From the IMG/VR virus record IMGVR_UViG_3300013835_000025: a stretch of 5,020 bases of DNA; one strand, 5' to 3'. Below the pieces are notes generated by a model. The model saw nothing but the letters and a program-made list of their open reading frames with translations. It was not told the DNA's origin and did not search any database. The stretch is from a virus (Duplodnaviria > Heunggongvirae > Uroviricota > Caudoviricetes). Shown here piece after piece: positions 1,084-3,987 of the stretch (within the stretch, counting starts at the first letter, position 1; the number at the start of each line of letters is the position of its first letter). The position numbers were made by a program, and so were the translations under genes.

Positions 1084-1496
1084 TGATTGTGCTGGTTGTG
1101 TTGTTATCACTGGCGGTGGCGGGTCTGTTTCTGGTGAAACACAAAAATGCCAGCCTGCGCGCTTCGCTGGACAGGGCAAACAACGTCGCCAGTGAACAGC
1201 AGGCGACCATCACCATGCTGAAAAACCAGCTTCATGTTGCACTCACCAGGGCAGACAAAAACGAGCTGGCGCAGGTGGCACTGCGTGAGGAACTGGAGAA
1301 CGCCGCGAAGCGTGAAGCACAGCGCGAGAAAACCATCACGAGGTTACTCAATGAAAACGAAGATTTTCGCCGCTGGTACGGTGCTGACCTGCCTGATGCT
1401 GTGCGCCGGTTGCACCAGCGCCCGGCCTGCGCAGACGCCAGTGATTGTCCACAACGCCTGCCCGAAAGTGAGCCTTTGCCCGATGCCGGGCAGTGA
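1071..1496 (+). CDS. lysB: LysB, Rz-like inner-membrane spanin (141 aa)
   Basis: N-terminal transmembrane anchor (MSKLMIVLVVLLSLAVAGLFLV) followed by a charged, helix-prone periplasmic domain (ELAQVALREELENAAKREAQREK). Start overlaps the lysA stop by 13 nt; GAGGGG lies upstream. Confidence 0.85.
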   Translation: MSKLMIVLVVLLSLAVAGLFLVKHKNASLRASLDRANNVASEQQATITMLKNQLHVALTRADKNELAQVALREELENAAKREAQREKTITRLLNENEDFRRWYGADLPDAVRRLHQRPACADASDCPQRLPESEPLPDAGQ

Positions 1497-1641
1497 CCCG
1501 GAGACGAACGGCGATTTAAGTGCCGATATCCGGCAGCTTGAGAACGCGCTGGCACGCTGTGCCAGTCAGATAAAAATGATTAAACACTGTCAGGACGAAA
1601 ACGATGCTCAAACCCGACAGCCTGCGCAGGGCGCTGACTGA
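1351..1641 (+). CDS. lysC: LysC, Rz1-like outer-membrane lipoprotein spanin (96 aa), partly embedded in the +1 frame of lysB
   Basis: Internal ATG at 1351 within the 1234..1641 ORF gives MKTKIFAAGTVLTCLMLCAGCTSARPAQTPVIV...: a signal peptide with a lipobox-like LCAGC, then a Pro-rich mature region typical of Rz1-type o-spanins. GAGG precedes the ATG. The gene overlaps the lysB 3' end and extends beyond it into R. Confidence 0.8.
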   Translation: MKTKIFAAGTVLTCLMLCAGCTSARPAQTPVIVHNACPKVSLCPMPGSDPETNGDLSADIRQLENALARCASQIKMIKHCQDENDAQTRQPAQGAD

Positions 1642-2071
1642 TGCCGTCACGGTGCTGAAAACTAACCCCGATATGCTGCGGATATTCGTGGATAACGGGA
1701 GTATTGCCTCCACACTGGCGACGTCGTTGTCATTCGAAAAGCGTTACACGCTCAATGTGATTGTGACCGACTTTACCGGTGATTTTGACCTGCTCATTGT
1801 GCCGGTGCTGGCGTGGCTGCGGGAAAATCAGCCCGACATCATGACCACTGACGAAGGCCAGAAAAAAGGCTTCACATTTTATGCAGACATCAACAATGAC
1901 AGCAGCTTTGATATCAGTATCAGCCTGATGCTGACCGAGCGCACGCTGGTCAGTGAGGTTGACGGTGCGCTGCATGTGAAGAATATCCCGGAACCTCCGC
2001 CGCCGGAGCCGGTCACCCGCCCGATGGAGCTGTATATCAATCGCGAACTGGTGAGCAAGTGGGATGAATGA
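1604..2071 (+). CDS. R: Tail completion protein R (155 aa), P2 gpR family
   Basis: ATG at 1604; 155-aa product MLKPDSLRRALTDAVTVLKTNPDMLRIFVDNGS... Length and position after the lysis cassette match P2 gene R. Overlaps lysC 3' end and the S start. Confidence 0.85.
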   Translation: MLKPDSLRRALTDAVTVLKTNPDMLRIFVDNGSIASTLATSLSFEKRYTLNVIVTDFTGDFDLLIVPVLAWLRENQPDIMTTDEGQKKGFTFYADINNDSSFDISISLMLTERTLVSEVDGALHVKNIPEPPPPEPVTRPMELYINRELVSKWDE

Positions 2072-2522
2072 GTTTAAGCGTTTTGAAGACCGGCTGACCG
2101 GACTTATTGAGTCGCTGTCACCGTCAGGGCGCCGGAGACTGGCGGTAGATATTGCGAAGAAGCTGCGCCAGCGCCAGCAGCAGCGAATTAAATTACAAAA
2201 AGCCCCGGATGGTACGCCGTATGTACCGAGAAAAAACCAACCAGTACGAAATAAGAAAGGCCGGATAAAGCGGGAAATGTTTGTGAAATTACGCACTAAC
2301 CGGTTTATGAAAGCAACAGGTAGCGAGAGTGCGGCTGTGGTGGCGTTTGCCAGCGGAGTACAACGAATTGCGCGGGTACATCAATTAGGGCTTAGGGATA
2401 AGCCGGGGCGTAACAGTGCTGTGGTGGAATATCCTGTTCGTGAGTTATTTGGTTTTGACAAGGAATCTATACAATTGATAGAAAGGGAGTTATTAGTGAT
2501 TCTATCGAAAGATGTTATATGA
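2064..2522 (+). CDS. S: Tail completion protein S (152 aa), P2 gpS family; the last ~25 codons lie in AT-rich sequence
   Basis: ATG at 2064 overlapping the R stop (ATGAATGA); product MNEFKRFEDRLTGLIESLSPSGRRRLAVDIAKKLRQRQQQRIKLQK... Position and size fit P2 gene S. Base composition falls from about 2440 onwards, so the C-terminus (...FDKESIQLIERELLVILSKDVI) may be of different origin. Confidence 0.8.
   Translation: MNEFKRFEDRLTGLIESLSPSGRRRLAVDIAKKLRQRQQQRIKLQKAPDGTPYVPRKNQPVRNKKGRIKREMFVKLRTNRFMKATGSESAAVVAFASGVQRIARVHQLGLRDKPGRNSAVVEYPVRELFGFDKESIQLIERELLVILSKDVI
2455..2484 (+). promoter_or_regulatory. Candidate sigma70-like promoter inside the 3' end of S, reading toward the cargo gene
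   Basis: Perfect -35 hexamer TTGACA at 2455-2460; after an 18-nt spacer, TAGAAA at 2479-2484 is a weak -10 (4 of 6 matches to TATAAT). Weak overall, and the region is AT-rich, so chance matches are expected. Confidence 0.18.
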
Positions 2523-3274
2523 GACGGGTGTTTGTGGATAAAAAGTTTTCCATTTTGAGAAAAAGAGTAAAGCATTCTCAAAAGAAAGTTATGGATTGTA
2601 TTATTGCCGACCATAATGCTGATATATGTGTGTTATGCGGGAGTTCTGACGATATTACTCGTGAGCACATTATTCCTCAGTGGGCCTTTGAGTCAAATGC
2701 TGAAAAATCTTTAATTAATAAAAAGAATAATCAGTCAACTCATTACATTAAAGCCACTGTACCAGCATGCAGAGTGTGCAATTCTGATTTGCTGGGAGTG
2801 TTTGAGTATAACCTGAAGAAATTTCTTACGGAAAAGAGGGGGGATGAGTTAACAGATTATGAATATGATTGCATCATATGGTGGTTGCAATACATGGGCT
2901 TTAAGTTGCAATTAATGGATTTACGGACCCGCTTTCTCAGGTATAAAGGGGGTGATTATATCCCTTTCCTTGCAAACTTCCCGGTTGCAATGTTTTGGGG
3001 GAATGTCGATACGACGCCGGGGGATGTCTTCAGGATTATACGAAAATCGCGACGCAATCTGATGTCGAAATGGAAGGATAAAAAACATAATTCTTTGATG
3101 GTTTTTGAAACATCAAACAAGAGTTTTCATTTCTTTCATAAGGTTGATGAATTTATTTTTATTGAAATGCCTCAGGTTAAGAAGGCGTTTTTCTTCTTTT
3201 TTAATAAAGAATTTGACAGCCATGATTTAGCTCATGAGGAGTGTATGAAGATTATAGAGAAGTGTTACAACTAA
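2519..3274 (+). CDS. AT-rich cargo gene: HNH-motif (zinc-ribbon ββα-Me) nuclease-like protein with an uncharacterised C-terminal domain (251 aa)
   Basis: Single uninterrupted ORF in the S-V gap. Motifs seen directly in the translation: C37-V-L-C40-G, R-E-H50-I-I-P, Asn-rich linker, C84-R-V-C87-N88, i.e. CxxC...H...N...CxxC as in HNH endonucleases. Start ATG overlaps the S stop (ATGA); an alternative in-frame ATG is at 2591 (MDCIIADH...). Codon usage is strongly A/T biased, unlike its neighbours. Confidence 0.75.
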   Translation: MRRVFVDKKFSILRKRVKHSQKKVMDCIIADHNADICVLCGSSDDITREHIIPQWAFESNAEKSLINKKNNQSTHYIKATVPACRVCNSDLLGVFEYNLKKFLTEKRGDELTDYEYDCIIWWLQYMGFKLQLMDLRTRFLRYKGGDYIPFLANFPVAMFWGNVDTTPGDVFRIIRKSRRNLMSKWKDKKHNSLMVFETSNKSFHFFHKVDEFIFIEMPQVKKAFFFFFNKEFDSHDLAHEECMKIIEKCYN

Positions 3275-3283
3275 TATTTATTA

Positions 3284-3302
3284 TGTTGTGTCACGGCTGA
3301 CA
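3284..3302 (+). promoter_or_regulatory. Inverted repeat TGTCA-CGGC-TGACA in the cargo-V intergenic region; possible activator site for a V-operon late promoter
   Basis: Perfect 5-bp arms TGTCA/TGACA with a 4-nt spacer at 3288-3301, nested in a TGT...ACA context (TGT 3284-3286, ACA 3300-3302). P2-family late promoters are described as carrying a TGT-N12-ACA partial dyad near -55 that is recognised by Ogr/Delta-type activators; here the spacing is N13 or N10, not N12, and the dyad is only about 50-65 bp from the V ATG, so the geometry is imperfect. Confidence 0.25.
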
Positions 3303-3351
3303 GAGTCCTCCATGATTGCTGCTGGTATCGTCCGGCGGCATCCTTCCCGTT

Positions 3352-3987
3352 ATGAACACTCTCGCAAATATTCAGGAACTCGCGCGCGCACTGCGCAACA
3401 TGATTCGCACCGGCGTTATCGTCGAAACCGACCTTAACGCCGGTCGCTGCCGTGTGCAGACCGGCGGCATGTGCACCGACTGGCTTCAGTGGCTGACCCA
3501 TCGTGCCGGGCGTTCGCGCACATGGTGGGCACCTTCCGTGGGGGAACAGGTGCTGATTCTGGCCGTGGGCGGTGAACTCGACACGGCGTTTGTTCTGCCG
3601 GGGATTTATTCCGGCGATAATCCCGCGCCGTCTGCGTCGGCGGATGCCCTGCATATCCGTTTCCCTGACGGGGCGGTGATTGAGTATGAACCCGAAACCA
3701 GTGCACTTACGGTAAGCGGAATTAAAACGGCCAGCGTGACGGCTTCTGATTCTGTTACTGCCACGGTGCCGGTGGTCACGGTGAAAGCATCAACCCGCGT
3801 CACCCTGGACACACCAGAGGTGGTCTGCACCAACAGGCTGATTACCGGCACGCTGGAAGTGCAGAAGGGCGGGACGATGCGCGGCAACATTGAACACACC
3901 GGCGGTGAACTCTCATCAAACGGTAAGGTACTGCATACCCATAAACACCCCGGCGACAGCGGCGGCACAACCGGGAGTCCTCTATGA
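3352..3987 (+). CDS. V: Baseplate central spike protein V (211 aa), P2 gpV family
   Basis: ATG at 3352 in frame with the 3316..3987 ORF; product MNTLANIQELARALRNMIRTGVIVETDLNAGRCRVQTGGMCTDWLQWL... matches my recollection of P2 gpV. The C-terminus (KVLHTHKHPGDSGGTTGSPL) has a His-rich apex. The track's 3316 start is a TTG with no Shine-Dalgarno. Confidence 0.88.
   Translation: MNTLANIQELARALRNMIRTGVIVETDLNAGRCRVQTGGMCTDWLQWLTHRAGRSRTWWAPSVGEQVLILAVGGELDTAFVLPGIYSGDNPAPSASADALHIRFPDGAVIEYEPETSALTVSGIKTASVTASDSVTATVPVVTVKASTRVTLDTPEVVCTNRLITGTLEVQKGGTMRGNIEHTGGELSSNGKVLHTHKHPGDSGGTTGSPL

What the first reader, a model, noticed from the sequence alone, without database searches (positions are those of the whole stretch)
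2519..3274. Low-GC single-gene cargo with an HNH nuclease signature in the S-V slot of the P2-like late operon
An 851-bp AT-rich segment interrupts an otherwise GC-rich, tightly packed lysis/tail/baseplate operon and encodes one 251-aa protein. The protein has an unmistakable HNH zinc-ribbon signature (CVLCG ... REHIIP ... N-rich ... CRVCN) in its first ~90 residues, then ~160 residues with no motif I can place. The S-V gap is the position of orf30 in P2, a known low-GC slot in P2-like phages. Prophage-borne nucleases in such slots commonly act as superinfection-exclusion or abortive-infection effectors, so this is a candidate compact, single-protein anti-phage system. Alternative: a freestanding HNH homing endonuclease, selfish rather than defensive. 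I cannot tell from memory whether this protein is identical to P2 Orf30 itself.
Basis: partly seen in the sequence, partly recalled or inferred. Interest (0 to 1): 0.8.

Follow-up and report, generated by a model that had tools for sequence, protein, structure and literature searches.

The report
Orphan HNH nuclease in P2 hotspot
A P2-like prophage of E. coli carries, between tail genes S and V, one AT-rich gene for an uncharacterised zinc-dependent HNH-type nuclease; the same slot holds known anti-phage systems in sister prophages, so it is a good but untested candidate for a new single-protein defence gene.

Summary

It is not P2 Orf30. Its CxxC...EH...N...CxxCN residues are invariant across relatives down to 26% identity, and 18 of 21 diverse members hit Pfam HNH_5. 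Residues about 106-251 match no Pfam family or solved structure. The whole protein is under strong purifying selection.

No PADLOC, NCBIfam or literature entry describes it. It is PHROG 10503 (unknown function) and the "ORF16 moron" of phage R18C.

Three lines of context favour a defence or conflict role:
- The S-V slot is an exchangeable cargo hotspot that elsewhere holds Pycsar, AAA+TIR, RelA/SpoT and AAA ATPase genes.
- Distant homologues (Vibrio, Flavobacterium, CPR bacteria) are solitary, low-GC genes with no conserved partner.
- Those homologues often sit beside Abi, TIR, toxin-antitoxin or restriction genes.

Homing is disfavoured.

Caveat: in P2-like phages the gene abuts the S stop codon and the P_V promoter, no promoter of its own was found, and expression in the lysogen is unproven.

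Verdict: a real feature and a plausible new single-gene nuclease defence; the function is untested.

The parts
2064..2522 (+). Gene S (tail completion / virion morphogenesis). Divergent 'S2' allele from position 2182 onward, 55% aa identity to P2-type gpS.
   Evidence: Pfam Phage_tail_S E 2.5e-29. Homology to P2 and L-413C DNA stops at 2181. BLASTP 55% identity. The S2 allele is present in 79 E. coli genomes and the cargo in 77.
2182..3314 (.). Exchanged module relative to cargo-less P2-like phages: the 3' two thirds of S plus the cargo ORF. It replaces 364 bp of L-413C.
   Evidence: blastn of the window against L002 (P2) and L003 (L-413C).
2428..3287 (.). AT-rich segment, 860 bp, GC 0.355.
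   Evidence: Maximal-scoring-segment calculation and composition profile.
2519..3274 (+). Cargo ORF, 251 aa. The ATG overlaps the S stop codon as ATGA. The alternative, homologue-supported start is GTG 2534 (246 aa), = WP_225104067.1, = R18C gp15/ORF16, = PHROG 10503.
   Evidence: dN/dS is 0.07-0.17.
2627..2833 (+). HNH (beta-beta-alpha-metal) core, residues 37-105. Zinc ligands C37/C40 (2627-2638) and C84/C87 (2768-2779); E49-H50 (2663-2668); N70 (2726-2728); N88 (2780-2782).
   Evidence: These residues are invariant in alignments A1 and A2. HNH_5 is hit by 18 of 21 members. Relative P0123 is above the Pfam cut-off. PDB 4H9D aligns on both motif halves. The AF2 model has strand 46-50, strand 80-84 and helix 85-105.
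2834..3271 (+). Residues 106-251: helix 113-138 (invariant W122, K129), a low-confidence loop 140-164, and a C-terminal alpha/beta region 166-251 (four strands plus helices). No known family or fold.
   Evidence: dN/dS is 0.05 for residues 111-165 and 0.09 for residues 166-251.
3284..3302 (+). Conserved TGT-N13-ACA dyad (TGTTGTGTCACGGCTGACA). This is the presumed activator-binding element of the late promoter P_V. It begins 10 nt after the ORF stop and is retained downstream of every cargo class.
   Evidence: Alignment A4 and pattern search. The P_V identity is inferred from knowledge of P2 late promoters and was not tested.
3352..3987 (+). Gene V (baseplate spike), first gene of the next late operon.
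   Evidence: Pfam Phage_spike and Phage_base_V. Homology to P2 resumes exactly at 3352.

Best explanation
The ORF encodes a stand-alone, zinc-stabilised HNH nuclease carried as exchangeable cargo in the S-V hotspot of P2-like prophages. It most likely serves as a single-protein anti-phage or anti-mobile-element effector. Proposed mechanism: the basic N-terminal core (residues 37-105) cuts nucleic acid, with H50 as general base, N88 (with E49) holding the catalytic metal, and C37/C40/C84/C87 holding structural zinc. The conserved remainder (helix 113-138 and the C-terminal alpha/beta region) restricts that activity to foreign or infected-cell nucleic acid. It could do so in two ways: by recognising a feature of invading DNA, as the prophage-borne type IV enzyme McrA does, or by holding the nuclease inactive until infection is sensed (abortive infection). 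Because there is no partner gene anywhere in the family, self/non-self discrimination must be built into this one protein. Shown: the gene, its HNH residues, their conservation, purifying selection, the hotspot position, and the conflict-type neighbourhoods. Inferred: nuclease activity, gating by the C-terminal part, the anti-phage role, and expression in the lysogen.
For: HNH core: C37, C40, E49, H50, N70, C84, C87 and N88 are invariant in 21 sequences of 26-41% identity gathered by an exhaustive HMMER search. 18 of 21 hit HNH_5, best E 3.1e-5, and no other family is hit by more than 2. Relative P0123 passes the Pfam cut-off (30.8 against 27.5 bits). The best PDB sequence match is HNH endonuclease 4H9D, collinear on both motif halves (E 0.096). 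The AF2 model (pTM 0.80) has strand-strand-helix at the right residues. Functional constraint: dN/dS is 0.17 (close pairs) and 0.07 (diverged pairs), and 0.05-0.09 in all three regions. Hotspot: among 78 P2-like contigs with both S and V, the gap is empty in 54, orf30-type in 16, this gene in 2, and other cargos in 6. All cargos are 33-39% GC. They include Pycsar (PycC 1.5e-128, PycTM 8.5e-29), AAA+TIR, RelA_SpoT/PDC-S33 and AAA/PDC-S59. Cargos also stack with an orf30 homologue. Single-gene module: no conserved neighbour in 78 non-P2 loci. Gene GC is below flank GC in 71 of 73. Neighbourhoods: Mrr/type IV REase, Mokosh, Lamassu, GajB, bSEFIR, PD-Lambda-3; AbiJ_NTD4 (twice), Fic (twice), RES-Xre, SymE, TIR_2+nSTAND1, integrase+relaxase, and a second HNH_5 gene. 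pI is 9.07.
Against: There is no match to any PADLOC 2.0 model for this protein or 10 relatives, none in NCBIfam, and none in the literature searched. No experiment exists. In P2-like phages the gene starts within about 0-20 nt of the S stop and ends 10 nt before the P_V element. No sigma-70-like promoter or terminator was found. It may therefore be made only late in the lytic cycle, which is not what a lysogen-protecting gene needs, although the Pycsar cargo is packed the same way, 15 nt after S. The neighbourhood enrichment is not formally quantified, and PADLOC models also hit non-defence helicases and methylases. The commonest cargo of the slot, orf30, has no known function. Part of the locus set was retrieved with patterns built on the EH..P.W motif, so the figure of 129 of 133 intact motifs is partly circular.
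Confidence: 0.5

Rival explanations
1. It is a lytic-cycle function of the phage itself. As the last gene of the late P_O operon, it would be made late in infection and act for the phage. Possible roles are degrading host or competitor DNA, attacking P4-like satellites, or processing branched DNA before packaging, as T4 endonuclease VII (also a zinc-bearing beta-beta-alpha-metal enzyme) does.
For: The ATG overlaps the S stop (ATGA), and in all 54 P2-like loci the gene follows S within about 20 nt in the same orientation. No own promoter or terminator was found, and the P_V element starts 10 nt after the stop. The virulent phage R18C keeps the gene intact.
Against: Only 77 of 1530 E. coli genomes with P2-type S/V flanks have it, and most P2-like phages have an empty slot, so it is dispensable. 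Most family members are solitary chromosomal genes far from any phage, with about 160 nt of their own upstream DNA. The plus-strand Pycsar defence system has the same tight packing.
Confidence: 0.2
2. It is a free-standing HNH homing endonuclease: a selfish gene that cuts cargo-less S-V junctions and copies itself in by repair, dragging the adjacent S sequence with it.
For: The distribution among close relatives is sporadic at one fixed site between conserved genes. There is near-perfect linkage to a divergent S allele, which could be a co-conversion tract. The layout of an N-terminal catalytic domain, a flexible linker and a basic C-terminal domain resembles phage homing enzymes. The weak BFVD matches include an 'HNH homing endonuclease'.
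Against: The gene is not more conserved than its flanks: its identity exceeds that of gpV in only 5 of 35 diverged loci, so there is no sign of recent sweeps. The same AT-rich S2-type allele accompanies three other unrelated cargos on either strand, so it marks recombination with a lower-GC phage lineage and not co-conversion by this gene. The slot exchanges many non-nuclease cargos. Outside P2-like phages the family is chromosomal, single-copy and in conflict-type islets, not in phages, introns or inteins. All regions are under strong purifying selection.
Confidence: 0.1
3. It is a non-catalytic zinc-finger protein, for example a regulator or DNA binder, in which the HNH-like residues are structural only.
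For: The Pfam score is below the cut-off for this protein. There is no significant structural match to any HNH enzyme. N70 lies in a low-confidence loop of the model.
Against: The general-base His (H50), the preceding acidic residue (E49) and the metal-binding Asn (N88) are invariant down to 26% identity, along with the four Cys. A purely structural zinc site would not need them. HNH_5 is hit by 18 of 21 members.
Confidence: 0.07

Closest known systems
Pfam HNH_5 (PF14279) endonucleases; solved example Geobacter metallireducens HNH endonuclease, PDB 4H9D
   Same: Same motif order: CxxCG...LT(E/D)H.vP...N...vPAC..CN, with zinc ligands flanking the His-Asn-Asn catalytic set. 18 of 21 family members hit HNH_5, and 4H9D aligns on both halves.
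   Different: This protein scores below the Pfam cut-off (16.2 against 27.5 bits). It has an insertion of about 29 residues between the two strands, an N-terminal helical hairpin, and about 145 extra conserved residues with no counterpart.
McrA of E. coli (e14 prophage; type IV, modification-dependent HNH restriction enzyme). The comparison is from my own knowledge.
   Same: A prophage-borne, single-polypeptide HNH nuclease of similar size (about 250-280 aa) with no partner gene; a precedent for how such a protein can defend without harming its host.
   Different: McrA has its HNH at the C-terminus behind an N-terminal DNA-reader domain, whereas here the HNH is N-terminal. No sequence or fold similarity to it was detected in the PDB searches. 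Modification dependence was not tested.
Other cargos of the P2 moron slots: orf30 (S-V), old/tin, Z/fun, and the Pycsar, AAA+TIR and RelA/SpoT cargos found here in S-V
   Same: Same slot, same low GC (33-39%), same exchange by recombination in the flanking core genes. This gene can sit next to an orf30 homologue in one slot.
   Different: Unrelated in sequence (against Orf30: E 0.91). Unlike Pycsar it matches no known defence family.
Free-standing phage HNH homing endonucleases (e.g. I-HmuI, T4 MobE). The comparison is from my own knowledge.
   Same: N-terminal HNH plus a basic C-terminal part, an intergenic position between conserved phage genes, and a patchy distribution.
   Different: There is no sign of spread faster than its flanks, the family is mostly chromosomal, and no known DNA-binding module (NUMOD, AP2, HTH) was detected.
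Single-protein defence nucleases with variable sensor domains (Shedu; CBASS Cap5 HNH effector)
   Same: One conserved nuclease core joined to differing non-catalytic domains. Here, proteins of about 300-360 aa share only residues about 30-140 with this family, and one sits in tandem with a family member.
   Different: There is no homology to Shedu (a PD-(D/E)xK enzyme) or to SAVED-HNH Cap5, and no cyclase or other signalling partner nearby.

Membership tests
HNH / beta-beta-alpha-metal nuclease superfamily (Pfam HNH_5-like) | Catalytic His at the end of strand 1, a structural Asn, and a metal-binding Asn or His at the start of the helix | tested here: met
   H50, N70 and N88 are invariant in A1 and A2. 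The model has strand 46-50, strand 80-84 and helix 85-105.
HNH / beta-beta-alpha-metal nuclease superfamily (Pfam HNH_5-like) | Two CxxC pairs flanking the motif (structural zinc) | tested here: met
   C37/C40 and C84/C87 are invariant. They are intact in all complete copies.
HNH / beta-beta-alpha-metal nuclease superfamily (Pfam HNH_5-like) | Profile score at or above Pfam's gathering cut-off | tested here: inconclusive
   The query scores 16.2 bits against a cut-off of 27.5. 18 of 21 members hit at E<=0.05, best 3.1e-5. Relative P0123 scores 30.8 bits. P0248 has a precomputed HNH_5 hit.
HNH / beta-beta-alpha-metal nuclease superfamily (Pfam HNH_5-like) | Significant structural match to a solved HNH enzyme | tested here: not met
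   [not shown]
HNH / beta-beta-alpha-metal nuclease superfamily (Pfam HNH_5-like) | Metal-dependent nuclease activity | not testable with these tools
   Needs purified protein.
Known anti-phage defence families (PADLOC-DB 2.0) | Profile match to a defence-system protein | tested here: not met
   The best hits are E 0.033-0.036 and not significant. There are no hits for 10 relatives.
Anti-phage defence gene (functional class) | Location in a hotspot or island that holds validated defence systems | tested here: met
   Pycsar, AAA+TIR, RelA_SpoT and PDC-S59-like cargos occupy the same S-V slot. Distant homologues sit next to AbiJ, TIR+nSTAND, type IV REase, Mokosh, Lamassu and TA genes.
Anti-phage defence gene (functional class) | Protection against phage when expressed | not testable with these tools
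   Needs plating-efficiency and liquid-infection assays.
Free-standing homing endonuclease | Presence/absence polymorphism at one fixed site between conserved genes | tested here: met
   All 54 P2-like loci have it in S-V. 77 of 1530 E. coli genomes with S/V flanks carry it.
Free-standing homing endonuclease | Evidence of spread independent of the flanks (the gene more similar than the backbone) | tested here: not met
   Identity exceeds that of gpV in only 5 of 35 diverged loci.
Free-standing homing endonuclease | Cleavage of the cargo-less allele | not testable with these tools
   Needs an in vitro cleavage or co-infection experiment.
P2 Orf30 | Sequence similarity to P2 Orf30 and the same strand | tested here: not met
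   Orf30 is on the minus strand and 261 aa. BLASTP E is 0.91.
Type IV (modification-dependent) HNH restriction enzymes, McrA-like | A recognisable modified-base reader domain (SRA, SBD, McrA N-domain) joined to the HNH | tested here: not met
   No Pfam, PDB-sequence or fold match for residues 106-251. A novel reader domain is not excluded.

The most novel reading that the evidence does not exclude
The gene is wired into the late operon of the helper phage, with no promoter of its own, abutting S and P_V. It would act during P2's own lytic cycle as a weapon against P4-like satellites or co-infecting phages, a phage-side nuclease analogous to the anti-satellite nucleases of vibriophage ICP1. It would have been recruited from a widespread cellular family of single-protein HNH immunity genes with a previously unseen C-terminal fold.
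Probability: 0.1. Interest if true: 0.75.

Novelty: new variant of a known kind. Interest (0 to 1): 0.45.

Why it matters
If the gene protects against phages, it would add a compact (about 250 aa) one-protein nuclease system to the defence catalogue. The family reaches from E. coli prophages to Vibrio, Flavobacteriia, Desulfobacterota and CPR bacteria, and its non-catalytic half has no known fold, so it could reveal a new way of gating or targeting an HNH nuclease. The analysis also shows that the S-V slot of P2-like phages is a working cargo hotspot holding Pycsar, TIR, RelA/SpoT and ATPase genes. Until now this slot has been known mainly for the unexplained orf30 and passed over in the recent hotspot surveys I read. 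It could be mined in the same way as the old/tin and Z/fun loci. If the gene proves to be a late lytic function, it would be a rare example of a tail-operon-embedded nuclease in a temperate phage.

Tried and rejected
(1) Identity with P2 Orf30: rejected.
(2) Known defence family: PADLOC on the protein and 10 relatives, and NCBIfam, gave nothing.
(4) PDB sequence search with the single protein: none. With the profile, only a weak HNH hit.
(5) A conserved partner gene or operon in distant loci: none.
(6) A promoter or terminator around the ORF: none convincing. A perfect TTGACA at 2455-2460 has no acceptable -10 at 16-18 nt, and S 3' ends show no conserved non-coding-like motif.
(7) Co-conversion reading of the divergent S allele: rejected, because the same allele type goes with Pycsar, AAA and 'PCRF' cargos on either strand.
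(8) Strong co-divergence of the gene with the phage backbone: not supported; Spearman rho is only 0.16-0.42, so I do not claim it.
(9) Literature: no paper mentions WP_225104067. Rousset 2022, Vassallo 2022, the iLund4u preprint and NAR 2026 gkag898 do not describe S-V as a defence hotspot, and the last paper's 'downstream of GpL / within tail genes' may or may not include it.
Full report
**1. What is in the window.**

**2. The observation.**
- The maximal AT-rich segment is 2428-3287 (860 bp, GC 0.355 against 0.563 and 0.586). ORF GC3 is 0.41, against 0.65-0.69 in K, R, V and W.
- The low-GC stretch begins inside gene S. DNA homology to P2 and to the cargo-less phage L-413C stops at 2181, about codon 40 of S, and resumes at 3352 and 3315 respectively.
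- The gpS encoded here is only 55% identical to P2-type gpS, while R, V and W are 98-100% identical.
- The exchanged module is therefore 2182-3314, which is larger than the ORF.

**3. Not Orf30.**
P2's own gene in this slot is on the opposite strand, is 261 aa long, and is unrelated (BLASTP E 0.91). The R18C authors already noted the present ORF (their ORF16, 741 bp) as a moron of unknown function replacing ORF30, with no PSI-BLAST leads (PMC6823313). It is PHROG 10503, 'unknown function'. RefSeq annotates it as hypothetical protein WP_225104067.1, starting at GTG 2534.

**4. Is it an HNH nuclease?**
- For this protein alone, Pfam gives only sub-threshold HNH_5 (E 0.0099, 16.2 bits against a cut-off of 27.5).
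- An exhaustive HMMER search found 136 cluster representatives. About 25 are full-length relatives of 30-41% identity. Many are proteins of 300-360 aa that share only residues about 30-140.
- In an alignment of 21 full-length members (26-41% identity to the query apart from one close relative) the invariant residues are C37, C40, E49, H50, P53, W55, N70, C84, C87, N88, L92, W122 and K129. That set includes the two zinc CxxC pairs and the His-Asn-Asn catalytic set.
- 18 of the 21 hit HNH_5 (best E 3.1e-5), and no other family is hit by more than two.
- One longer relative passes the Pfam cut-off, and another family member carries a precomputed HNH_5 hit.
- A family profile finds HNH endonuclease 4H9D as its best PDB match, weakly (E 0.096) but collinearly on both motif halves.
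- The AlphaFold model (pTM 0.80, mean pLDDT 75.8) places strand 46-50, strand 80-84 and helix 85-105 as a beta-beta-alpha unit.

I conclude that the N-terminal module is an HNH_5-like nuclease core with a long insertion between the strands. Catalysis itself is inferred.

**5. The rest of the protein.**
- Residues about 106-251 have no Pfam, PDB-sequence or fold match.
- This part is not junk. Many residues are conserved, and dN/dS is 0.05 for residues 111-165 and 0.09 for residues 166-251, as low as in the HNH part.
- Both the HNH part and the C-terminal part are basic; the overall pI is 9.07.

**6. Distribution and position in P2-like phages.**
- Among 50,697 phage records only R18C has the gene.
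- Among 5426 complete E. coli genomes, 77 have it, while 1530 have the S/V flanks.
- In all 54 P2-like loci recovered from genome and viral collections (43-99% identity), the gene sits between S and V in the same orientation. This holds even where R, S, V and W are themselves only 52-65% identical.
- It starts 0-20 nt after the S stop. In E. coli the ATG overlaps the stop as ATGA.
- It ends 10 nt before a TGT-N13-ACA dyad (3284-3302) that is retained downstream of every cargo class. I take this dyad to be the activator site of the late promoter P_V.
- No sigma-70-like promoter or terminator was found around it.
- On these grounds it should at least be co-transcribed with the late operon. Expression in the lysogen is unresolved.

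**7. The S-V slot is a cargo hotspot with defence content.**
Of 78 P2-like viral contigs with both S and V, taken by closeness of gpV and not at random, the gap is:

| S-V gap content | Contigs |
|---|---|
| Empty (about 66 bp) | 54 |
| orf30-type | 16 |
| This gene | 2 |
| Other cargos | 6 |

Three more classes came from E. coli genomes. All cargos are 33-39% GC. They include:
- a complete Pycsar system (PycC E 1.5e-128, PycTM 8.5e-29);
- a 508-aa AAA+TIR protein;
- a RelA/SpoT-domain protein (PDC-S33-like);
- a 414-aa AAA ATPase (PDC-S59-like);
- a 483-aa protein with a weak LmuA match;
- two unknowns.

Cargos can also stack. This gene is followed by an orf30 homologue in L116-L118 and by a 347-aa membrane-like protein in L006/L119. 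The AT-rich 'S2-type' 3' end of S accompanies four cargo classes on either strand. I read it as the mark of recombination with a lower-GC P2-like lineage, not as something this nuclease causes.

**8. The wider family.**
- Homologues of 30-42% identity occur in Vibrio, Shewanella, Acinetobacter, Halomonas, Flavobacterium, Chryseobacterium, Pedobacter, Desulfobacterota and Gracilibacteria/Peribacteria.
- They have no P2 genes nearby and no conserved neighbour; the largest neighbour cluster occurs in 4 of 78 loci.
- They have about 160 nt of upstream DNA of their own, and gene GC is below flank GC in 71 of 73 loci.
- Immediate neighbours are a mix of housekeeping genes and conflict-system genes: Mrr/type IV REases, methylases, Mokosh, Lamassu, GajB, bSEFIR, PD-Lambda-3, Schlafen/AlbA_2 and NACHT-associated modules.
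- In eight pre-annotated neighbourhoods I saw AbiJ_NTD4 twice, Fic twice, RES-Xre, SymE, CyanoTRADDas_TM, TIR_2+nSTAND1, an integrase+relaxase element, and a second, 318-aa HNH_5 gene in tandem.
- This is the pattern of a solitary accessory gene in small variable islets, and not of a phage homing element.

**9. Weighing the explanations.**
- **Defence or conflict effector (0.5).** It fits the hotspot, the neighbourhoods, the single-gene modularity, the low GC and the purifying selection. It lacks any family match or experiment, and expression in the lysogen is an open question.
- **Lytic-cycle function (0.2).** It fits the operon wiring, but not the dispensability or the mostly chromosomal family.
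- **Homing (0.1).** It fits the fixed site and patchiness. However, the gene is not more conserved than its flanks (it exceeds gpV in only 5 of 35 loci), the linked S allele is shared with unrelated cargos, and the family lives mainly outside phages.
- **Non-catalytic zinc finger (0.07).** This is unlikely given the invariant H50, E49 and N88.

**10. Caveats.**
- Loci were retrieved with patterns that include the EH..P.W motif, so the count of 129 of 133 intact motifs is partly circular. The independent evidence is.
- The neighbourhood enrichment is descriptive, not statistical.
- The gap census is a biased sample.
- The P_V assignment rests on knowledge of P2 late promoters and on conservation, not on a test.

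**11. Verdict.**
This is a real, intact, selected gene for an HNH_5-like nuclease with an uncharacterised C-terminal half, sitting in a genuine defence-type hotspot. It is a sound candidate for a new single-protein nuclease defence: a new variant of a known kind. It is not a categorically new system, and its function is unproven.

Noticed in passing
L139 2842-4744 (E. coli ST2747, NZ_CP007393); also L209: A complete Pycsar system (PycTM effector plus PycC cyclase) sits in the S-V slot of a P2-like prophage, starting 15 nt after the S stop. None of the hotspot papers I read mentions this slot as a defence locus.
   Followed up: yes
L157 3392-4918; L214 3776-4876 (-); L138 2915-4159 (-); L140 2895-4346 (-); L175 4174-4917 (-): Further S-V cargos: a 508-aa AAA+TIR protein, a 366-aa RelA/SpoT-domain protein (PDC-S33-like), a 414-aa AAA ATPase (PDC-S59-like), a 483-aa protein that RefSeq calls 'PCRF domain-containing' (weak LmuA hit only), and a 247-aa unknown. 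All are 33-39% GC.
   Followed up: partly
L116 6846-7664 (-), L117 6873-7712 (-); L006/L119 6785-7828 (+): Stacked cargos. The HNH-like gene is followed in the same slot by a homologue of P2 orf30 (35% identity, E about 5e-52) or by a 347-aa protein with predicted N-terminal membrane helices and no Pfam match.
   Followed up: partly
L226 5866-6822 (Flavobacterium aquatile): A 318-aa Pfam HNH_5 protein lies immediately upstream of the 261-aa family member. It appears to be one of the longer relatives that share only the HNH core. This is two HNH_5 genes in tandem in one small islet.
   Followed up: no
L005 (MAG 'Sporobacter termitidis') and L006 ('Chryseobacterium sp. 18061'): These records carry an enterobacterial-type P2-like prophage segment; the cargo region compared in L006 is identical to that of IMG/VR locus L119. 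This is probably contamination or mis-binning, not a true host range.
   Followed up: no
window 1234-1641 (+), inside lysB/R: This ORF contains the embedded Rz1-like o-spanin LysC (lipobox-like ...LMLCAGCTS...), which overlaps lysB and the start of R. RefSeq annotates it in sister prophages.
   Followed up: no
[not shown]
   Followed up: no
L124 6294-6752; L127 6001-6609; proteins P0037, P0038: A few copies are truncated: the N-terminal HNH part is missing in L124, L127 has a 203-aa ORF, and there are clusters of 170-181 aa. Occasional decay does occur.
   Followed up: no
window 3316-3987: The mechanical ORF for V starts at TTG 3316, but homology to P2 and the annotated start are at ATG 3352. 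The 36 nt in between belong to the promoter/leader region.
   Followed up: yes
PMC6823313 (R18C paper): The paper calls P2 ORF30 'short, 261-bp-long', whereas the annotated P2 gene is 786 bp and 261 aa. This is probably a slip of units.
   Followed up: yes
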